This document shows positions 36,078 to 64,000 of a stretch of DNA of 64,000 bases, one piece after another (within the stretch, counting starts at the first letter, position 1; each line of letters begins with the position of its first letter). The translations under genes and the position numbers were made by a program. Under the pieces are notes generated by a model that worked only from the letters and a program-made list of their open reading frames with translations, searched no databases and was not told the DNA's origin. Origin of the DNA: Patescibacteria group bacterium (GTDB lineage: Bacteria > Patescibacteriota > Saccharimonadia > Saccharimonadales > Saccharimonadaceae); contig JAIUPJ010000001.1 in assembly GCA_020160975.1 (NCBI GenBank), positions 907,551 through 971,550 of the forward strand, read 5' to 3'.

Positions 36078-36865
36078 GGTTGGTCTTAGAGCTTAGAGCA
36101 TAGCTAAACTGCAAAAATAACCCTTGGTTCTAAGTCTTAAGTCGTAAAAAATTGTTTTTCGTCATTCCGGACTTGATCCAAAATTTAAAGATTCTGGTGT
36201 GCTTCTTCTCTAGAAAATCAAATCCTTTCTTTTGTCTCATCAAAAGAAACAAAACCGACCACCTTTGGAGTCAAAGGTGGAGAAACCTCTGGGGCGGCTT
36301 CCCTCCGCCGGGAACAGCAACTACGACTTTCTTGGAAGACTGCGGAGTCTTTGTTCAGTGAGCAGGAACAAAGACGAAGTCCTCGTCTTGCCAGGAAAGC
36401 CGTAGTCACCGTGTCTCGGGTCAGTCCAGATGCCCCAGACCCCAGGACGCAGCAGAGCTGCTTATTTCAGCGGCTCTGCCGCAAAATACTGCAGTCACTC
36501 GTGACTGTACACCTAATGGGTCTTGGGAGCTCAAGAACCCAAGAAGACTGAGGATTGTCTTTTGGAGTCATTCACGACATTGTTTCCACTACAAACAATA
36601 GCGATACTGTAGTGGAATGCCCTTTAGGGCAGTATGTCGTGACCAAAAGACAAGCAGAAGGCTTCTTGGCGTGAATGAGATATCCCAATGTCGTGTTTGG
36701 TTCTTTGATCGAAACAAAGAACTGTTTCCCTCGCTTTGCAGCAAAGCGAGTCGCTTTTTGCTTCTTTGGCGAAAGAAAAAGAAGTGGATTTATTCGGTTC
36801 TTTTGGATAAAGAGCTAGACTTACCCGTTTTGCAAAAAGGAGACGGCATATAAATTTTTAATCCC

Positions 36866-36934
36866 AAAATGTCAAAACCCCACCCTCACCACACTGGCGG
36901 AGCGGGGCTCGACGCCGAGTGGGTGAGGGTGGGG
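36866..36934 (-). terminator. strong intrinsic terminator read on the minus strand
   Basis: 13-bp perfect stem ccccaccctcacc / ggtgagggtgggg (36878-36934), followed on the minus strand by TTTTGACATTTT. Confidence 0.5.
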
Positions 36935-37261
36935 TGAATCAGAGGGCTGCTTGATACGCGCTGTCGGACGTCTTGATGAACCAAGGCCTCCAAAGCGGTA
37001 GTAGCGGTAGTTTCCTCAAGACAAGTGTCACTGGGTAGTGGCGGCTGTCAGCTGAGCTTGTCCCTACAGATCCCCACATGTGTCTTTGTCTGCGCTTGTA
37101 GATGAAGTGCACAGCAGGGCTCTTCGAGGTTCCTTTTGTGCGTTCATGCCGCTGCACTTGAGTGATCGTGCAGTTGGAGGCGACGACGACGACTTCCATT
37201 GTGCGAGTGATCACAGCATCTCCCATGATTGAGTGTCCAAAAACCAAAAACTTCCATTTTA

Positions 37262-37293
37262 ATTATGACAAAACTAACTATATTTGTCAAGTT
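37262..37293 (-). promoter_or_regulatory. minus-strand sigma70-like promoter (TTGACA-N17-CATAAT)
   Basis: Reverse complement of 37262-37293 reads ttgacaaatatagttagttttgtcataat. Points leftwards into the ORF-poor region. Confidence 0.4.
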
Positions 37294-37310
37294 TTGCGAT
37301 GTTGTAACAG

Positions 37311-41573: not shown

Positions 41574-41652
41574 CTGATATTGAAGAGGGCACCCTCTCCA
41601 GAGATTTCTCTCCGGAGGGGTGCCCTCGTGTCGCCAGTGGCGACGAGTTGAG

Positions 41653-43641
41653 TCAGGCCTCGTTGCTCGCTTCCGCAGAGCTCGGGGTCGACTCGGTGGT
41701 GCCTTGCGGCTTGCTGGTCGTGGCCTGAGCCACGAGCAGCTGCAGCAGCTCGAGCAGGTTGCCACCACCACCGCCGCCCGTGATGAGGGTCTGCGGCATG
41801 TACGGCGTCTGGCTCTTGCTCAGTGCATCGACGACGGCCACGGCAGCGGTCTGACCCGCACCGATGGCGTCACGCTGCGCCTGGTATCCAGCCGCCTGGC
41901 CCTCACCGAGGGCTCGGGCGGCGGAGCCGTTGGCTTCACCGATGGCACGGATCTTGGCAGCCTCACCGGCACCGAGCTCCTCCAGGACCTTGCGGTCACC
42001 GGTCGCCTTGGCCACGGCAGCTTCGGCGTTCGCCCTGTTGATCTCGACCGAGACCTGGGCGGCGGCCTTCTGCTGCTGCATGTCAGCCTGACCCTTCATC
42101 GCCTCCATGTCGATGCGCGCGTTCTCGGCGTCCTTCTGGGCGCCGTACGTCTGCTTCTTCTGGTTGGCGATTTCTCGGGTTCTGAGAACCTCGGCGAGGT
42201 CATCGGGAAGTCTGACGTCCTGGATGTAGACGCCGCGCACCTCGACGAAGTACTCGTTGAGGTACTCCTTGATGTACTCGGTGGCCTTCTGCTGAACGCT
42301 GCTGCGGGTCTGGATGAAGTCCGTTGCCGCAAGCTTGGAGAGCGTGTCGCGGAAGTAGTTGCCAACCGCGGCCTGAAGGACCTCGTTCACCAACTTGGCG
42401 ATCGACTCCACCGACCCGATCACCTTGGCGGCGTTCGTGTCGGGGATGTGGATCTGGACTTGCAGTTCGATCGCGAACTCGAACGCGTCGTTCGACTTCG
42501 CAACGATGGTGCTGAGCTCCCTGTCGAGGCCGTGCTCGGACTCGACGTTGTCGGCCCAGTTGAGCTGCAGGATGCTGGTGGGGACGATGATCGGCTGGTA
42601 GATGGTCTGGTTGAGACCCTTCTTGCTGGTGCGGATCACATCCGACCAGATGCCTTCGTGACCGGGTGCCACGATGGATCCGAACTTGTACGTCTCACCG
42701 GACTTGTCCTCAGTCGGCAGGCCGACGTACGCCTTGATGACCGCGACCTGGCCCTGCTCGACCACCAGCATGGGCTGGAGGTCGACCTTGAACAGGAAGG
42801 GGTTGATGGCGTAGTCACCCGAACGCAGCACGTCATGCTGAAGGCCTCGGCGGCCTCCCGCATCCAGGAACGCCTGGGCGTCCTGGTAGTTGTTGTGCAG
42901 TGCGTTGTGGTCGCCGAGCACCGTCTGGATGACCTCATTCGAGGAAGCGTTGGACGCCTCCAACGAGCGGATGTCATCGAAGCTACCGATGCGGCCGGCA
43001 ATCGTTCCCGGCTCGAGCGGCGGACCGTCGAGCGCGGTGAGGATGCCAACCTGGTCGGTGGGGATGGTGACGTAGTGCAGGTCCTTGCTCTGTGCGAGCT
43101 GAACCATCTGCTCGGCGTCACGGTTGACGGGTCGCCCATAGGTACCGTTGACCGTCACCACGATGAAGGCATCGGGGTGGATGGTGTAGGTACCCGGGGT
43201 GAGCACGTGACGCTGGACGCCCTGCTGGCCACCGTTGTCGACGAAGGACTTGACGTCCTGAAAGTTGCCGTACTCGGGCTTGTAGGCCGCGCTCGTCGCT
43301 CCCGTCGGAATCGGTGCTCCCACCTGGGAGATGACGATGCCGAAGGTCTTGTCCGGGATGCTGATGATCGGCACCTTGCGGTTGCTGAACATCGGCCACA
43401 GACGAAGGTGAGGGCCGGTCGCGAGGGCACCTGGCTGGATGCCGTTCTCGCCGTTGAGCGCGATGAAGCCGTTGTTTTCGAGCGACTTCCCGCCGAAGTT
43501 CTTCGTGAGAAAGGCGTTGTAGCCCTCACGTACGAACATGAAGCTCTTCGCGAAGACGAACAGGACGATGAGAACGACCAGTCCGATCACGATGAGCATC
43601 GGTGAGATGCTGATACCAAAGGGCACGAGAGTTCCTTTCAC
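41653..43641 (-). CDS. flotillin-like SPFH/band-7 protein (FloT/YqiK type)
   Basis: 662 aa. N-terminal TM, SPFH domain, Ala/Glu-rich flotillin repeats and a Gly-rich C-terminus. The gene is about 65% GC, against about 50% for its neighbours. Confidence 0.85.
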   Translation of the reverse strand: MKGTLVPFGISISPMLIVIGLVVLIVLFVFAKSFMFVREGYNAFLTKNFGGKSLENNGFIALNGENGIQPGALATGPHLRLWPMFSNRKVPIISIPDKTFGIVISQVGAPIPTGATSAAYKPEYGNFQDVKSFVDNGGQQGVQRHVLTPGTYTIHPDAFIVVTVNGTYGRPVNRDAEQMVQLAQSKDLHYVTIPTDQVGILTALDGPPLEPGTIAGRIGSFDDIRSLEASNASSNEVIQTVLGDHNALHNNYQDAQAFLDAGGRRGLQHDVLRSGDYAINPFLFKVDLQPMLVVEQGQVAVIKAYVGLPTEDKSGETYKFGSIVAPGHEGIWSDVIRTSKKGLNQTIYQPIIVPTSILQLNWADNVESEHGLDRELSTIVAKSNDAFEFAIELQVQIHIPDTNAAKVIGSVESIAKLVNEVLQAAVGNYFRDTLSKLAATDFIQTRSSVQQKATEYIKEYLNEYFVEVRGVYIQDVRLPDDLAEVLRTREIANQKKQTYGAQKDAENARIDMEAMKGQADMQQQKAAAQVSVEINRANAEAAVAKATGDRKVLEELGAGEAAKIRAIGEANGSAARALGEGQAAGYQAQRDAIGAGQTAAVAVVDALSKSQTPYMPQTLITGGGGGGNLLELLQLLVAQATTSKPQGTTESTPSSAEASNEA

Positions 43642-55615: not shown

Positions 55616-57799
55616 ATGAACCTAGCGACGAGTCTTGACCAGATAAAGGGAGTGGGGCCGAAAACTGCCGAGCAACTGCGCACGGCGGGGCTTCGGACGG
55701 TCGGCGATTTGCTGATGTTCTTACCGATGCGGCACGAGGATTTTACAGGACTTACGACGATTGCTGATCTTAAGCCTGGCAAAGTCACTATAAAGGCACG
55801 GTGTGAGGCGATTTCGACGCGACCGGTGCGCCGTGGCCTACGCCTAACTACCGCGGTATTGGCAGACGACACCGGCAAGCTCAATGCCGTGTGGTTCAAC
55901 CAGCCATATCGTACTCAGCAGCTTGGCGGTAGCAACGATGAATTTTATTTTAGCGGTGCGTTCGAATACAATTACGGCAAATATCAGCTGACAAATCCTA
56001 GTGCGGAGCTGGCAAAAGATTTGCCGGTGCAGGCAGAGCGCCTCGTGCCGGTGTATCACTCGATTCGTGGCCTCAAGAGTCAGGTGGTGCGCAAAGTGCT
56101 CGAGGAACTGCGCCCACTCATGAGTGTGCTGCCCGAAACGCTTCCTGAATCTATCGTGGCATCAGAAAAGCTGATGAGCCGCGCAGATGCTATCGCTACG
56201 ATGCATTTCCCGAAACGACTTGAAGACGTCACCAAGGCGCGCGAGCGGTTGGCGTTTGAGGAGTTGTTTGAGCTACTGCTCGCGAGTCAATTAAATAAGC
56301 AGTCGAACCAAAAGCTCGCTGGGTATCATATTCCGTTTGAGGTGAGTGTTGTCAAAGATTTTGTGTCACAGCTGCCGTTTCAGCTGACGAACGCTCAGCG
56401 AAAAGCCGCCTGGGATGTTGTGCAAGATTTTGAAAAATCCGTACCAATGAACCGGCTACTCCAGGGCGATGTCGGCAGCGGCAAGACTGTTGTTGCCGGG
56501 TTGGCGGCACGACAGGCGGCGAGCCAGGGCTACCAGACGGCTATCATGGCTCCGACTGAAATCCTCGCCACCCAGCATGCCGAGACGCTCGACAGGCTTT
56601 TGGCGCCTTTTGGCGTGAAGGTCGGTCTGTTGATTGGCAGCGTCAAGGGTAAGGCCCGGACGACGCTGTATGAGCAAATTGCGAACGGGAAAGTTGATGT
56701 GGTGGTTGGCACGCACGCACTCATTCAGGACAAGGTCGAGTTTCATAACCTTGGCTTTGTTGTCATTGATGAGCAGCATCGATTTGGAGTCGAGCAGCGG
56801 CAGAAATTGCTCGCAAAGTCGAAAGGGAGCGTCCGTCCATTTACTTCTTCACAATCGGTCAGGCCTGGAGAATCTAGGCCTACGGGCCTGGAATCTCCAG
56901 AGATTGACGCGCGGATCGTCAATGGTTCAGAATTGAACGGACGGACGCCTCACGATGAGCCGGCGCTTGTGCAAGGACTTTTGCCCCACTTACTCGCGAT
57001 GACTGCGACGCCCATTCCGCGTAGCCTTGCACTTACCGTCTATGGCGAGCTGGACATTAGTGTGCTAAATGAGCGCCCGGCCAATCGCTTGCCCATCAAA
57101 ACGCAGATTGTGTCGCCAGTGTCGGCGGCGAAGATCTACGAGCAGGTCGATAAGGAGATTGCAACTGGTCGTCAAGTTTATGTTATTTGCAGCTTGATCG
57201 AGGAAAACCCGGACAATGAGGTAAAAAGTGTACAAGTAGAGTATAAACGGCTCAAAAACAGTGTGTTTGGTCATCGCAAGATCGGCCTGCTGCATGGTAA
57301 GATGAAGCCGACAGAAAAAGAGCAGGTTATGCAGGACTTCAAGGACAAAAAATACGATATCCTTGTCAGCACTACCGTCGTCGAGGTAGGTGTTGACGTG
57401 TCTAACGCTACTGTGATGATCATCGAAAATGCCGATCGGTTTGGCTTGGCGCAGCTGCACCAGCTGCGTGGGCGCGTGGGACGAGCAGAGTACCAGAGTT
57501 ACTGCTATCTGATGATGAGCGGAACAAACAAGCCAAGCGAACGGCTACGCGAAGTTGAGAAAAGTAATGACGGCTTTTACCTCGCTGAAGTTGATATGCA
57601 ACTGCGTGGCCCGGGCGAAATCTATGGTCGCATGCAGAGCGGCGCGCTCAATCTCCAGATTGCGACACTCGCCGACACGGCGCTCATTTCTCGTGCGCAA
57701 AAAGCCGCCAAGCGCTTCATCGAGCACGAAGATATCGGTAGTTATGCTGGTCTGAACGAGCGTGTCCGGTACTATCAGCGCCTGACGACGCTGAATTAG
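55616..57799 (+). CDS. recG: ATP-dependent DNA helicase RecG (carries a ~40-aa in-frame insertion between helicase motifs II and III)
   Basis: 727 aa. Wedge domain, Walker A GDVGSGKT, DEQH and MTATPIPRS motifs. Confidence 0.95.
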   Translation: MNLATSLDQIKGVGPKTAEQLRTAGLRTVGDLLMFLPMRHEDFTGLTTIADLKPGKVTIKARCEAISTRPVRRGLRLTTAVLADDTGKLNAVWFNQPYRTQQLGGSNDEFYFSGAFEYNYGKYQLTNPSAELAKDLPVQAERLVPVYHSIRGLKSQVVRKVLEELRPLMSVLPETLPESIVASEKLMSRADAIATMHFPKRLEDVTKARERLAFEELFELLLASQLNKQSNQKLAGYHIPFEVSVVKDFVSQLPFQLTNAQRKAAWDVVQDFEKSVPMNRLLQGDVGSGKTVVAGLAARQAASQGYQTAIMAPTEILATQHAETLDRLLAPFGVKVGLLIGSVKGKARTTLYEQIANGKVDVVVGTHALIQDKVEFHNLGFVVIDEQHRFGVEQRQKLLAKSKGSVRPFTSSQSVRPGESRPTGLESPEIDARIVNGSELNGRTPHDEPALVQGLLPHLLAMTATPIPRSLALTVYGELDISVLNERPANRLPIKTQIVSPVSAAKIYEQVDKEIATGRQVYVICSLIEENPDNEVKSVQVEYKRLKNSVFGHRKIGLLHGKMKPTEKEQVMQDFKDKKYDILVSTTVVEVGVDVSNATVMIIENADRFGLAQLHQLRGRVGRAEYQSYCYLMMSGTNKPSERLREVEKSNDGFYLAEVDMQLRGPGEIYGRMQSGALNLQIATLADTALISRAQKAAKRFIEHEDIGSYAGLNERVRYYQRLTTLN
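56828..56947 (+). mobile_element. 120-bp element bounded by perfect 10-bp inverted repeats (gcgtccgtcc ... ggacggacgc) with internal direct repeats, inserted in frame in recG; candidate MITE/RPE-like element
   Basis: Read directly. IRs at 56828-37 and 56938-47. Internal near-direct repeats ggcctggagaatct / ggcctggaatctcc flank a palindromic aggcct. Length 120 = 40 codons, no stop. Confidence 0.45.
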
Positions 57800-59517: not shown

Positions 59518-59602
59518 GCGGATGTGGTGGAATTGGTAGACACGCATGCCTTAGGAGCATGTGCCTCACGGCGTGAAGGTTCAAGTCCTTTCATCCGCAC
59601 CA
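59518..59602 (+). tRNA. tRNA-Leu (anticodon TAG) with long variable arm and encoded CCA
   Basis: Cloverleaf folded by hand. Acceptor GCGGATG/CATCCGC, anticodon stem CATGC/GCATG with loop CTTAGGA, T-arm GGTTCAAGTCC, 3' ACCA. Confidence 0.9.
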
Positions 59603-62277: not shown

Positions 62278-64000
62278 ATGACAGCGCTCGCATCCAAGTT
62301 CGGGGTGAATACTAAAAAGCATACACAGGCCAAATTGTGGCAACGCATAGCAACGCTACTGACAGCGTTTGTTCTGATGGGTAGCGCGCTGGCGCAGATC
62401 GCACAGGCGGCGCCAGGTGATTACGTGTGGCAGAAGGCGGAGACGAATCTGATCGGAGACCAGAGCAACTGGTACTCCATCGCTAGCTCCAGCGACGGCA
62501 GCAAGCTCGCCGCGGTCGTGTCGGGCGGCTTCATCTACACCTCATCCGACTCCGGTGCCACCTGGACGGAGCAAACCGCCGCCGGCTCGCGTTACTGGCA
62601 ATCCATCGCTAGCTCCAGCGACGGCACGAAGCTCGCCGCGGTCGAATCAGAGTGGAACGGCACCAACTATGTCGGCTCCGTCTACACCTCATCCGACTCC
62701 GGCGCCACCTGGACGGAGCGCACCGCCGCCGGCTCGCGTAGCTGGTACTCCATCGCCAGCTCCAGCGACGGCACGAAGCTCGCCGCGGTTGACTATGGCG
62801 GCTTCGTCTACACCTCATCCGATTCCGGTGCCACCTGGACGGAGCAAACCGCCGCCGGCTCGCGTTACTGGTACTCCATTGCCAGCTCTAGCGACGGCAG
62901 CAAGCTCGCCGCGGTCGTGTCGGGCGGCTCCGTCTACACCTCATCCGATTCCGGTGCCACCTGGACGGAGCAAACCGCCGCCGGCTCGCGTAGCTGGTAC
63001 TCCATCGCTAGCTCCAGCGACGGCAGCAAGCTCACTGCGGTCGTGTCGTACGGCTCTGTCTACACCTCATCCGACTCTGGCGCCACATGGACGGAGCGCA
63101 CCGCCGCCGGTCCGGGTAGCTGGTACTCCATCGCCAGCTCTAGCGACGGCACGAAGCTCGCCGCGGTCGCCTACGGCGGCTCCCTCTACACCTCATCCGA
63201 TTCTGGTGCTACCTGGACGGAGCGCACCGCCGGCGGCTCGCGTAACTGGCGATCCATCGCTAGCTCCAGCGACGGCACGAAACTCGCCGCGGTCGAGTCG
63301 GGCGGCTCCCTCTACACCTCATCCGATTCTGGTGCTACCTGGACGGAGCGCACCGCCGGCGGCTCGCGTTACTGGTCCTCCATCGCCAGCTCCAGCGACG
63401 GCAGCAAGCTCGCCGCGGTCGTTTTGGGCGGCTCCGTCTACACCTCATCCGACTCTGGCGCCACCTGGACGGAGCGCACCGCCGCCGGCTCGCGTTACTG
63501 GTCCTCCATCGCCAGCTCCAGCGACGGCAGCAAGCTCGCGGCGGTCGAATCGGGCGGCTCCGTCTACACCTCATCCGACTCCGGCGCCACCTGGACGGAG
63601 CGCACCGCCGCCGGCTCGCGTAACTGGTCCTCCATCGCCAGCTCTAGCGACGGCAGTAAGCTGGTCGCGGCGGTCGCCTACGGCGGCTCCCTCTACACCT
63701 CATCCGATTCTGGTGTTACCTGGACGGAGCGCACCGCCGCCGGCTCACGTGACTGGTACTCCATCGCCAGCTCCAGCGACGGCAGCAAGCTCGCCGCGGT
63801 CGTTTGGGGCGGCTCCGTCTACACTTCGTCCGATTCCGGCGCCACTTGGACGGAGCAAACCGTCGCCGGCTCGCGTGACTGGTACTCCATCGCCAGCTCC
63901 AGCGACGGCAGCAAGCTCGCCGCGGTCGTTTGGGGCGGCTCCGTCTACACTTCGTCCGATTCCGGCGCCACTTGGACGGAGCAAACCGTCGCCGGCTCGC
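62278..64000 (+). CDS. secreted Asp-box (BNR) repeat beta-propeller-type protein; 5' part only, continues beyond the window end
   Basis: Own translation: signal peptide MTALASKFGVNTKKHTQAKLWQRIATLLTAFVLMGSALAQIAQA|AP..., then about 12 tandem ~42-aa units, each W(Y/S)SIASSSDG(S/T)KLAAV..GG.(V/L)YTSSDSGATWTE(Q/R)TAAGSR.. and each carrying an S-x-D-x-G-x-T-W Asp box. No stop before 64000, hence absent from the ORF track. Confidence 0.75.
   Translation, partial: MTALASKFGVNTKKHTQAKLWQRIATLLTAFVLMGSALAQIAQAAPGDYVWQKAETNLIGDQSNWYSIASSSDGSKLAAVVSGGFIYTSSDSGATWTEQTAAGSRYWQSIASSSDGTKLAAVESEWNGTNYVGSVYTSSDSGATWTERTAAGSRSWYSIASSSDGTKLAAVDYGGFVYTSSDSGATWTEQTAAGSRYWYSIASSSDGSKLAAVVSGGSVYTSSDSGATWTEQTAAGSRSWYSIASSSDGSKLTAVVSYGSVYTSSDSGATWTERTAAGPGSWYSIASSSDGTKLAAVAYGGSLYTSSDSGATWTERTAGGSRNWRSIASSSDGTKLAAVESGGSLYTSSDSGATWTERTAGGSRYWSSIASSSDGSKLAAVVLGGSVYTSSDSGATWTERTAAGSRYWSSIASSSDGSKLAAVESGGSVYTSSDSGATWTERTAAGSRNWSSIASSSDGSKLVAAVAYGGSLYTSSDSGVTWTERTAAGSRDWYSIASSSDGSKLAAVVWGGSVYTSSDSGATWTEQTVAGSRDWYSIASSSDGSKLAAVVWGGSVYTSSDSGATWTEQTVAGS
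62467..64000 (+). repeat. tandem array of near-identical ~126-bp (one 150-bp) coding repeats, GC-rich
   Basis: The sequence tggtactccatcgc(t/c)agctccagcgacggca(g/c)(c/g)aagctcgccgcggtc...tacacctcatccga(c/t)tc(c/t)gg(t/c)gccacctggacggagc recurs about 12 times at >90% identity. Confidence 0.85.

What the first reader, a model, noticed from the sequence alone, without database searches (positions are those of the whole stretch)
56828..56947. In-frame 120-bp inverted-repeat element inside recG (MITE / RPE-like insertion into a helicase core)
Between the DEQH box and the MTATPIPR motif, recG has about 40 extra codons, SVRPFTSSQSVRPGESRPTGLESPEIDARIVNGSELNGRT, relative to the short E. coli-type spacer. 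The extra DNA is bounded exactly by a perfect 10-bp inverted repeat, gcgtccgtcc at 56828-37 and ggacggacgc at 56938-47. It contains internal direct repeats ggcctggagaatct / ggcctggaatctcc around a palindromic AGGCCT. It is exactly 120 bp with no stop, so the helicase frame is kept. This looks like a miniature inverted-repeat element that inserted into a coding sequence and is tolerated as a surface loop. The Rickettsia palindromic elements (RPEs) are the known example of this; it would be unusual here and unusual inside RecG's motor domain.
Basis: partly seen in the sequence, partly recalled or inferred. Interest (0 to 1): 0.7.

Follow-up and report, generated by a model that had tools for sequence, protein, structure and literature searches.

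The report
Conserved hairpin element translated inside recG
The extra loop in this Saccharibacteria RecG helicase is an in-frame copy of a previously undescribed ~130-nt hairpin-shaped DNA element that also occurs between genes in related genomes, a rare case outside Rickettsia of selfish-looking palindromic DNA being read through as protein.

Summary
The inverted repeat is real but 1 nt off (56829-38 / 56939-48). It is only the outer part of a ~128-nt hairpin (56825-56952; RNA z -6.1, DNA z -5.4).

Against insert-free relatives the extra DNA is 153 bp, or 51 codons (56825-56977), not 120 bp. AlphaFold predicts a disordered loop between helicase motifs II and III.

The same element sits at the same recG site in at least five separate Saccharibacteria lineages, once as two units in opposite orientation. 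It also lies intergenic, just behind stop codons, at three other loci. One of those loci is empty in an 88%-identical relative.

Its architecture is unusual. The asymmetric core hairpin and a 3' bulge are conserved (76-97% identity where synonymous sites are saturated). The outer stems have randomised sequence yet stay ~90% paired, and 30 of 45 pairs show double changes. G·T and A·C mismatches are equally common, which points to a DNA-level palindrome rather than a sense-strand RNA.

Copy number is low: one in this 64-kb window and none extra in ~280 kb of related loci searched. I found no shared terminal repeats, no clear target duplication, no transposase and no other protein host.

It resembles a Rickettsia palindromic element (RPE) but is not a classical MITE. 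It is a new variant of a known kind.

The parts
55616..57799 (+). recG ORF (727 aa), intact, with all helicase motifs. This is the host gene of the insertion.
   Evidence: ORF list. 8000 homologues, with Pfam RecG_wedge/DEAD/Helicase_C/RecG_dom3_C. PDB matches to RecG 9wm0 and 1gm5.
56825..56977 (+). The whole insertion relative to insert-free alleles: 153 bp, 51 codons, residues 404-454 (GSVRPF...ALVQG).
   Evidence: Protein alignment of 120 homologues. Nucleotide alignment to the empty allele L047. Residues 404-454 have pLDDT ~24 and no secondary structure. There is no counterpart in E. coli or T. maritima RecG.
56825..56952 (+). The hairpin element proper: 128 nt, matching the family covariance model from end to end.
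   Evidence: Model R1 scores 112.1 bits, E 9e-26. It is the only match in the window above 22 bits, even with filters off. Fold z-scores are -6.1 (RNA) and -5.4 (DNA).
56829..56855 (+). Left arm of the outer stem. The sequence is lineage-specific.
   Evidence: the repeat finder I1: 27-nt arms, 78% complementary. Between lineages the outer columns are only 15-46% identical, yet the outer helix is 88.5% paired.
56922..56948 (+). Right arm of the outer stem. It includes GGACGGACGC at 56939-48.
   Evidence: Relative to the L003-type copy this arm is 18 nt longer, reading directly from the alignment.
56865..56900 (+). Conserved apical hairpin CTGGAGAATCTAGGCC-TACG-GGCCTGGAATCTCCAG. It has an invariant A·A mismatch and an invariant T·G pair, and encodes ESRPTGLES. 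The 25-nt core is 56871-56895.
   Evidence: the repeat finder I2. The columns are invariant in 11 copies. The core hairpin is 76-97% identical between lineages whose four-fold sites are 34-51% identical.
56909..56925 (+). Conserved segment GCGCGGATCGTCAATGG. Its middle ~10 nt form an unpaired bulge on the 3' arm only.
   Evidence: The consensus structure leaves 10 columns unpaired here in all copies. GCG, A, T and G are invariant. The motif even survives in the core-deleted 60-nt remnant in L046.
56953..56977 (+). 3' tail of the insertion (ACGATGAGCCGGCGCTTGTGCAAGGA region). It is homologous to the outermost right stem of the recG copies in L003, L005 and L007, but has no pairing partner in this lineage.
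   Evidence: Comparison of the right flanks and the folds. This is a reading of those outputs.
56813..56820 (+). Host flank GCAAAGTC (codons A-K-S). It is complementary to the host flank on the other side, so the insertion sits in the loop of a small host palindrome.
   Evidence: The fold of 56813-56983 pairs the two flanks. The empty allele L047 reads GCAAAA-TCAAAGC-TTTTGC.
56976..56984 (+). Host-side flank GACTTTTGC (the end of the insert plus codons L-L-P). It is the partner of 56813-56820.

Best explanation
The segment is one copy of a small, low-copy palindromic DNA element family of Saccharibacteria. Its unit is a ~128-nt hairpin. In this genome the copy lies inside recG, between helicase motifs II and III. 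It is translated as a 51-residue disordered surface loop that RecG tolerates.

**Shown.**
- The element has a conserved, asymmetric apical hairpin plus a one-sided bulge, which looks like a recognition module.
- Its outer stems drift in sequence at the neutral rate but stay complementary.
- It occurs at unrelated loci.
- It is present or absent among close relatives, both in recG and at one intergenic site.

**Inferred.**
- It behaves as selfish or neutral DNA whose constraint acts on the DNA, not on the peptide and not on the sense mRNA.
- The arms are kept complementary by intra-palindrome correction (template switching at quasipalindromes, or hairpin-directed repair), perhaps with selection for a foldable substrate.
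- New loci are reached by an unknown trans-acting activity that recognises the core.
- The recG allele carrying the element spreads and is lost mainly by homologous recombination through the very conserved DEQH...TATPIPR flanks in these naturally competent bacteria.
For: **Structure.**
- 90.9% of cells are paired, against 31-41% when the partners are slid.
- 30 of 45 pairs show double changes, in 118 cells against 13-24 when slid. No shuffle out of 500 reaches the observed values.

**Nucleotide-level constraint, not peptide-level.**
- The core hairpin is 76-97% identical where four-fold synonymous sites of the same genes are 34-51% identical. The outer stems are 15-46% identical.
- In the near-identical pair L003/L006 the apical 14 nt are swapped as a block, AGGCCTGCGGGCCT to GGGGCAAAACGCCC. 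Pairing is kept but the peptide changes from RPAGL to GAKRP.
- The loop is predicted disordered.

**DNA rather than sense RNA.**
- G·T pairs (15, not counting the invariant one) are about as frequent as A·C mismatches (16) in the stems of 10 copies.
- The second unit in L003/L006 keeps the full consensus at 110-116 bits although it is antisense to recG.

**Dispersal.**
- L033, L038 and L043/L044 carry full copies (105-117 bits) between unrelated genes.
- L048 and L049, whose Kef protein is 88% identical to that of L043, have a 56-nt spacer where L043 has 198 nt.

**Patchy occupancy of recG.**
- Insert-bearing proteins fall in one clade that also contains the insert-free P0003, P0004 and P0010.
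- Isolated carriers P0051, P0057 and P0013 sit inside insert-free clades.
- UBA1932-type RecG, only 67% identical to the query, also carries it.

**Recombination.**
- L001 recG is ~65% identical to the window in its 5' third and 98-99% identical in the rest.
- P0057 is 98.8% identical to insert-free P0067 and P0069. All differences lie at the insertion, and the inserted copy there is an old, decayed one.

**Short-term constraint.** Of 12 point differences between close pairs, 8 are unpaired, 3 preserve pairing and 1 breaks it, although 75% of positions are paired.
Against: - Mobility is inferred, not seen. There are no two copies in one genome apart from the tandem pair in L003/L006.
- No target-site duplication, transposase or other partner gene was found.
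- Copy number is very low: one in 64 kb here and none extra in ~280 kb of related loci searched.
- Only three intergenic loci turned up in two very large collections, although those scans needed an exact core.
- All three intergenic copies, and the main recG copies, are in the sense orientation, the intergenic ones just behind a stop codon. That would also suit an RNA 3'-end or stability element.
- The invariant T·G and A·A positions and the one-sided bulge are typical of protein-bound RNA.
- The G·T versus A·C count rests on about 30 mismatches and on predicted folds.
- Intra-palindrome correction is an explanation taken from general knowledge. It was not tested here.
Confidence: 0.6

Rival explanations
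1. It is a functional structured RNA module, for example a 3'-end, stability or processing element bound by a specific protein. It works in the sense transcript. The recG copy either regulates recG expression or is a tolerated stray copy.
For: - Strong covariation with a conserved asymmetric internal loop, an invariant U·G and an A·A mismatch.
- All three intergenic copies lie 10-20 nt behind a stop codon, in the sense orientation and ahead of the next gene's promoter.
- The recG copies of six lineages are all in the sense orientation.
Against: - G·U and A·C mismatches are equally frequent.
- The inverted unit in L003/L006 keeps the full consensus on the antisense strand.
- There is no U-tract after any copy and no terminator call.
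- There is no Rfam match even at E = 10.
- The element is absent from most relatives at both loci, so it is dispensable.
Confidence: 0.2
2. It is a site-specific, homing-like element that repeatedly targets this exact recG position. The target could be the loop of the small host palindrome GCAAAA...TTTTGC, much as IS1397 targets the loops of REP palindromes. Each lineage would have acquired it independently.
For: - The same codon position is occupied in at least five separated lineages.
- In L003/L006 a second, strongly diverged unit sits at the same left junction in the opposite orientation.
- The empty site is itself a mini-palindrome.
- The intergenic copies lie where terminator hairpins are expected, and the empty L048 spacer has an 8-bp hairpin right after the stop codon.
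Against: - The flanks of the three intergenic copies share nothing with the recG site.
- The recG copies share a 3' tail and partial outer-stem similarity, which suggests common descent of the recG allele.
- Recombination is demonstrably active in this gene and explains the patchiness without homing.
- No endonuclease or recombinase is associated with the element.
Confidence: 0.12
3. It is a classical MITE: a deletion derivative of an insertion sequence, moved by a DDE transposase that recognises terminal inverted repeats and makes target-site duplications.
For: It has the right size and an overall inverted-repeat shape, and it is present or absent among relatives.
Against: - The termini are the least conserved part, at 15-46% identity.
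- The conserved part is central.
- No consistent target duplication was found.
- There is one copy in 64 kb and no transposase next to any copy.
Confidence: 0.05
4. It is an ordinary lineage-specific protein loop, and the inverted repeat is a coincidence.
For: A 10-bp inverted repeat alone is within chance. This loop of RecG tolerates length variation.
Against: - The whole-hairpin z-score is -6.
- Covariation is seen across 11 copies.
- Non-coding copies exist at other loci.
- The peptide changes radically while pairing is kept.
Confidence: 0.02

Closest known systems
Rickettsia palindromic elements (RPE; Ogata et al. 2000; reviewed in PMC10969869)
   Same: A palindromic repeat of about 100-150 bp that folds into a long hairpin. 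It is inserted in frame into a housekeeping gene, has no stop codon, is translated as an extra surface segment, and also occurs in non-coding DNA.
   Different: - The phylum differs (Patescibacteria/Saccharibacteria).
- Only one protein host (recG) was found, against dozens in Rickettsia.
- Copy number is very low.
- The conserved part is the centre, and the ends are free to vary.
- The same site is occupied in many lineages.
- Sequence relatedness to RPEs was not tested, because no RPE library was available.
Other bacterial small palindromic repeats with occasional intragenic copies (ERIC/IRU, Correia/NEMIS, BOX, Nezha; reviews PMC2229807, PMC3184786, PMC10969869)
   Same: They are non-autonomous, hairpin-forming and mostly intergenic behind genes. 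They sometimes fuse in frame with ORFs.
   Different: Those families have conserved terminal repeats, usually target duplications, and tens to hundreds of copies per genome. None of these was seen here.
REP / REPIN elements mobilised by RAYT (Y1 HUH) transposases, and IS200/IS605-type hairpin recognition
   Same: Recognition of an imperfect hairpin with defined mismatches rather than of terminal repeats. No target duplication. Action through single-stranded DNA would fit a conserved asymmetric core.
   Different: REPs are 20-40 nt with GTAG or CGTC tags and are highly repeated (PMC3733652). No such tag, no RAYT and no high copy number was seen here. This is an analogy of mechanism only.
Quasipalindrome template-switch correction and arm-to-arm gene conversion of palindromes (general knowledge: Ripley model; the Lovett laboratory's E. 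coli work; human Y-chromosome palindromes)
   Same: It explains arms that diverge between lineages at the neutral rate yet stay complementary within a copy, with G·T and A·C intermediates equally common.
   Different: This is a process, not an element family. It does not explain the conserved core, the bulge or the dispersal.
Inteins and homing introns in conserved motifs of DNA-metabolism genes
   Same: Occupancy of one precise site, flanked by extremely conserved sequence, in a replication or repair gene. The distribution is patchy and consistent with spread by recombination.
   Different: There is no endonuclease, no splicing domain, and no need for removal, because the insert is simply translated.

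Membership tests
MITE (IS-derived, DDE transposase) | Terminal inverted repeats whose sequence is shared by the copies of the family | tested here: not met
   The outermost ~20 columns on each side are 15-46% identical between copies, which is the level of saturated synonymous sites. The 10-bp repeat GCGTCCGTCC occurs only in the window/L001 lineage.
MITE (IS-derived, DDE transposase) | Target-site duplication flanking the element | tested here: inconclusive
   The filled allele (window) compared with the empty one (L047) allows at most AAG(G) on both sides. No common direct repeat is seen in L003, L005, L007, L008 or L017. The intergenic filled and empty pair is too diverged to read.
MITE (IS-derived, DDE transposase) | Several to many copies per genome | tested here: not met
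   There is one copy in the 64-kb window with filters off. No extra copy was found in ~280 kb of Saccharibacteria loci. Whole genomes could not be fetched, so the total per genome is unknown.
MITE (IS-derived, DDE transposase) | A related autonomous insertion sequence with the same ends | not testable with these tools
   No transposase lies next to any copy (gene tables; ORFs). A genome-wide search was not possible.
Rickettsia palindromic elements (RPE) | A ~100-150-bp palindromic repeat folding into a stable hairpin | tested here: met
   A 128-nt hairpin of -49 to -74 kcal/mol in every copy, with covariation.
Rickettsia palindromic elements (RPE) | In-frame, stop-free insertion in an ORF, compatible with the protein fold (surface segment) | tested here: met
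   All recG copies (60, 135, 153, 225 and 264 nt) are in frame and open. Residues 404-454 are predicted disordered, between a helix and the motif III strand.
Rickettsia palindromic elements (RPE) | Insertions in many unrelated genes | tested here: not met
   A profile of the encoded peptides run against 5.8 billion proteins found only a spurious 71-aa ORF over an intergenic copy. phmmer against 1.84 billion representatives found only two repetitive chance hits.
Rickettsia palindromic elements (RPE) | Sequence relatedness to RPE-1 to RPE-10 and a Rickettsiales host | not tested
   No RPE sequences were available. The host here is Saccharibacteria, so this is at most an analogue.
REP / REPIN (RAYT-associated) | A 20-40-nt imperfect palindrome with a GTAG or CGTC tag, extragenic, in high copy number, with a RAYT gene | tested here: not met
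   The unit is 128 nt, no tag is conserved at the foot of the hairpin, and copy number is low. The presence of a RAYT gene in the genome could not be tested.
Integron attC site | Conserved outer R''/R' boxes (RYYYAAC / GTTRRRY) with a variable centre | tested here: not met
   The arrangement is the opposite: the centre is conserved and the ends vary. The alignments show no such boxes at the ends.
Any curated RNA family (Rfam 15) | A match to a family covariance model | tested here: not met
   At the gathering threshold the window gives only a tRNA at 59518-59599. Positions 56780-57000 give nothing up to E = 10. L033, L038 and L043 give no hits.

The most novel reading that the evidence does not exclude
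The element represents a new kind of prokaryotic mobile hairpin. It would be recognised through a conserved, asymmetric central stem-loop and bulge rather than through its ends. It would be moved as folded single-stranded DNA into the loops of pre-existing hairpins: terminator-like hairpins behind genes, and the mini-palindrome at this recG codon. It would be self-maintaining as a palindrome by template switching. That would explain the invariant mismatches, the free but complementary outer stems, the repeated hits in both orientations at one recG site, and the positions just behind stop codons.
Probability: 0.15. Interest if true: 0.8.

Novelty: new variant of a known kind. Interest (0 to 1): 0.55.

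Why it matters
In-frame palindromic 'selfish DNA' inside essential genes has been a near-unique curiosity of Rickettsia. Finding an analogue in Saccharibacteria suggests the phenomenon recurs where genomes are small and recombination is frequent. Saccharibacteria are reduced, epibiotic and naturally competent members of the Candidate Phyla Radiation.

This family also gives a clean natural experiment. In one element, a recognition core is under strong nucleotide-level constraint. Around it, stems have lost all sequence similarity but kept pairing. That lets DNA-level palindrome maintenance be separated from RNA-level selection.

In practice, the covariance model can flag these inserts. Annotators will then not mistake them for frameshifts, assembly errors or novel RecG domains. 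The presence or absence of the insert is also a handy strain marker in oral Saccharibacteria.

Tried and rejected
- **Other copies in the window.** blastn-short with the segment and its flanks gave only chance 9-13-mers. The covariance model gave nothing above 22 bits apart from the element itself and its own reverse strand, with default filters and with filters off.
- **Genome-collection scan with the exact core**. About 20 hits in Alphaproteobacteria turned out to be one conserved coding gene (...INLGLTAWNLK...) without a long hairpin. I rejected them as chance. Metagenome hits L039-L041 lack the bulge and the stems and were also rejected.
- **In-frame copies in other proteins.** A profile of 10 encoded peptides against 5.8 billion proteins returned only P0121, a spurious ORF across an L038-type copy. 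phmmer of the 51-aa insert against 1.84 billion representatives returned two repetitive proteins that match EIDARIVNG by chance.
- **Other libraries.** Viral contigs, phage records, plasmid records and Rfam gave no match.
- **Literature.** I found no paper on palindromic or MITE-like elements in Saccharibacteria.
- **Promoter and terminator scan.** One weak promoter-like match and no terminator; not informative.
- **Target-site duplication.** None could be established.
- **Taxonomy of L038.** Exact protein look-up did not establish it.
- **Readings considered and rejected.**
  - Integron attC site: the conservation pattern is the reverse.
  - RNA-level excision (an intron-like or bulge-helix-bulge element): every recG copy is in frame and stop-free, which excision would not require.
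  - Assembly artefact: the insert is present in independent ENA, Logan, NCBI and JGI assemblies.
Full report
**What is in the sequence.** The window carries an intact recG gene (55616-57799, + strand, 727 aa). GCGTCCGTCC lies at 56829-38 and GGACGGACGC at 56939-48. The coordinates 56828-56947 are the 40 stop-free codons SVRPF...NGRT.

A perfect 10-bp inverted repeat within 150 nt is not unusual here. There are about 20 such places in the window, and shuffles give 8.9 +/- 3.6 ten-mer pairs against 33 observed. What is unusual is that the repeat forms the outer end of one long imperfect hairpin:
- The outer arms are 27 nt at 78% complementarity.
- The inner hairpin is 56865-80 / 56885-900 at 88%.
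- Folding gives -67.3 kcal/mol as RNA (z = -6.1, no shuffle as good) and z = -5.4 as DNA.

**It is an insertion, and it is 153 bp.** The organism is an oral-type Saccharibacteria; the homologues include 'Candidatus Saccharibacteria oral taxon 955'.
- Of the 120 best RecG clusters, most are 676-680 aa and have nothing at this position. That includes P0003 and P0004, the closest insert-free homologues (86% identity by BLASTP; 92-93% over the columns aligned).
- Relative to them the query has 51 extra residues, 404-454 (GSVRPF...ALVQG), which is 56825-56977.
- Solved RecG structures (E. coli 9wm0, T. maritima 1gm5) align on both sides and have no counterpart.
- An AlphaFold2 model gives pLDDT of about 24 and no secondary structure for exactly residues 404-454. 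These lie between the helix after DEQH and the motif III strand.

**The same thing in other lineages.** Related inserts occupy the same position in several other proteins: P0001 and P0002 (51 aa), P0005, P0008 and P0051 (45 aa), P0006 and P0007 (88 aa), P0013 (20 aa) and P0057 (75 aa). I fetched their DNA.
- Every insert folds into a long hairpin.
- The 88-aa insert is two units 4 nt apart. The first carries the core in reverse-complement orientation.
- The 60-nt insert of L046 keeps an outer stem and the bulge motif but has lost the core.
- The 225-nt insert of L045 is a decayed copy.

**Anatomy of the family.** An alignment of 11 copies shows four parts:
- An invariant apical hairpin, GAGAATCT(A/G/T)GG..-loop-..CC(T/C/A)GGAATCTC, with an A·A mismatch and a T·G pair kept in every copy. 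Both are strictly reverse-complemented in the inverted unit.
- A middle stem that co-varies.
- A conserved one-sided bulge on the 3' arm, GCGC.GAT.GT(C/T)AATG.
- An outer stem of about 20-25 bp whose sequence differs completely between lineages.

Pair counts on the consensus structure are as follows:

| Measure | Consensus structure | Partners slid by 1-3 columns |
|---|---|---|
| Cells paired | 90.9% | 31-41% |
| Cells with a change on both sides | 118 | 13-24 |

In addition, 30 of 45 pairs show double changes, and no shuffle out of 500 reaches the observed values.

Identity between the window and five other lineages, by region:

| Region | Identity |
|---|---|
| Four-fold synonymous sites of recG | 34-51% (saturated) |
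| Outer stems of the element | 15-46% |
| Middle stem and bulge | 50-78% |
| Core hairpin | 76-97% |

The core is therefore under nucleotide-level constraint. The outer stems have lost all sequence similarity while remaining paired.

**The constraint is not on the peptide.** In the near-identical pair L003/L006 the apical 14 nt differ as a block, AGGCCTGCGGGCCT against GGGGCAAAACGCCC. Pairing is retained, but the peptide changes from ESRPAGLES to ESGAKRPES. Among close pairs there are 12 point differences. Eight are in unpaired positions, three preserve pairing and one breaks it, although 75% of positions are paired.

**Copies outside recG.** An exact-core scan of one genome per species found four Saccharibacteria loci. 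Three are recG. One (L033) is intergenic, directly behind the stop codon of a 315-aa gene. A looser scan of metagenome contigs added two more intergenic loci:
- L038 lies about 15 nt behind the stop of a glycogen-debranching-like gene.
- L043, which is identical to L044, lies between a VIT1 gene and a Kef-type antiporter gene.

All score 105-117 bits with a covariance model built from the alignment. All are in the sense orientation of the upstream gene. L043 is Saccharibacteria by its Kef homologues. Relatives whose Kef protein is 88% identical (L048, L049) have a 56-nt spacer where L043 has 198 nt. Presence or absence is therefore polymorphic outside recG as well.

**What it is not.**
- The window has no second copy, with default filters or with filters off.
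- About 280 kb of related loci hold no extra copy.
- The ends are not conserved, and no consistent target duplication is visible.
- No transposase lies next to any copy.
- No other protein carries the encoded peptide.
- Viral contigs, phages, plasmids and Rfam give no match.
- I found no paper on such elements in Saccharibacteria.
- It therefore fails the defining tests for a classical MITE and for REP/REPIN.
- It shares with the Rickettsia palindromic elements the behaviour but not the breadth of hosts. That behaviour is a hairpin repeat read through in frame as a surface segment (review PMC10969869).

**DNA or RNA?** Two observations favour a DNA-level palindrome.
- In the stems of ten copies, G·T pairs number 15, leaving out the invariant one. 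A·C mismatches number 16. An RNA selected on the sense strand should tolerate the first and purge the second.
- The inverted unit in L003/L006 is as diverged from its neighbour as copies from different lineages are. It still keeps the full consensus on the strand antisense to recG.

Some features point the other way. All three intergenic copies lie just behind stop codons in the sense orientation. The invariant non-Watson-Crick positions and the bulge would also suit a protein-bound RNA. I keep that rival at about 0.2.

My inference is that the arms are kept complementary by correction within the palindrome. Candidates are template switching at quasipalindromes or hairpin-directed repair, both known from general knowledge and not tested here. 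The core and bulge would then be a recognition module for an unknown trans-acting factor.

**How the recG allele is distributed.** I built a tree of RecG with the insert masked.
- The query, P0001, P0002, P0005, P0006/7 and P0008 fall in one clade, which also contains the insert-free P0003, P0004 and P0010.
- P0051, P0057 and P0013 are isolated carriers inside insert-free clades.
- The UBA1932-type RecG, only 67% identical to the query, carries it too.

Recombination is demonstrably active in this gene.
- L001 recG is about 65% identical to the window in its first third and 98-99% identical in the rest.
- P0057 is 98.8% identical to insert-free P0067 and P0069. All differences lie at the insertion, yet its inserted copy is old and decayed.
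- The simplest reading is allelic transfer through the highly conserved flanks, in bacteria known to be naturally competent (general knowledge).

A site-specific, homing-like preference is not excluded (about 0.12). The empty site is itself a mini-palindrome, GCAAAA-TCAAAGC-TTTTGC. The second unit in L003/L006 also landed at the same junction.

**Verdict.** This is an in-frame copy of a dispersed palindromic element, analogous to the Rickettsia elements. It is not a MITE with terminal repeats, and recG is its only known coding host.

It is a new variant of a known kind. Its distinctive features are a conserved centre, freely evolving but complementary outer stems, low copy number and recurrent occupancy of one recG site. 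Whole-genome scans with the model, partner-gene profiling and transcript or peptide mapping would settle the mechanism.

Noticed in passing
window 62673-64000 (runs off the end of the window): A tandem array of a 126-bp unit, at least 10.5 copies with 89% matches. It lies in GC-rich coding-looking DNA and corresponds to a 42-aa repeat containing ...SSDSGATWTE..., which looks like Asp-box/BNR repeats. It is probably a large repeat-domain surface protein.
   Followed up: partly
window 36078-37310: About 1.2 kb with no ORF of 120 aa or more. It holds several strong hairpins: 36555-36686 at -59 kcal/mol, and a perfect 14-bp GC-rich stem CCCCACCCTCACC/GGTGAGGGTGGGG at 36877-36935. There is no credible Rfam match even at E = 1. 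The 11-mer CCCACCCTCAC also forms the outer stem of the intergenic element copy in L043, which may be chance.
   Followed up: partly
window 41620-43640: A GC-rich stretch with ORFs of 661 and 662 aa open on both strands. It contains the lowest folding energies in the window. Its composition differs from the 51.5% GC of the window as a whole.
   Followed up: no
L001 2063-4252 compared with window 55616-57799: recG of L001 is a mosaic. Its first ~800 nt are about 65% identical to the window and the rest is 98-99% identical, with the breakpoint near window position 56420. This shows recombination between diverged Saccharibacteria lineages within this gene, or a chimeric assembly.
   Followed up: partly
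L010, L012, L015, L019-L021, L023, L024, L026, L027, L029-L031, L034: About 14 Alphaproteobacteria or Rhizomicrobium genomes contain the 25-nt core pattern inside one conserved coding gene (...INLGLTAWNLK...). There is no long hairpin. This is a chance or convergent match and a warning for pattern-based searches.
   Followed up: yes
window 59518-59599: A tRNA gene about 1.7 kb downstream of recG. It is the only Rfam gathering-level hit in the window.
   Followed up: no
L046 2131-2208 and L045 4183-4425: Two further states of the recG site. One is a 60-nt remnant that keeps the outer stem and the bulge motif but has lost the core hairpin (-43.6 kcal/mol, z = -7). The other is a 225-nt decayed and expanded copy that no longer matches the covariance model. 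Together they show the element decaying in place while the reading frame is kept.
   Followed up: partly
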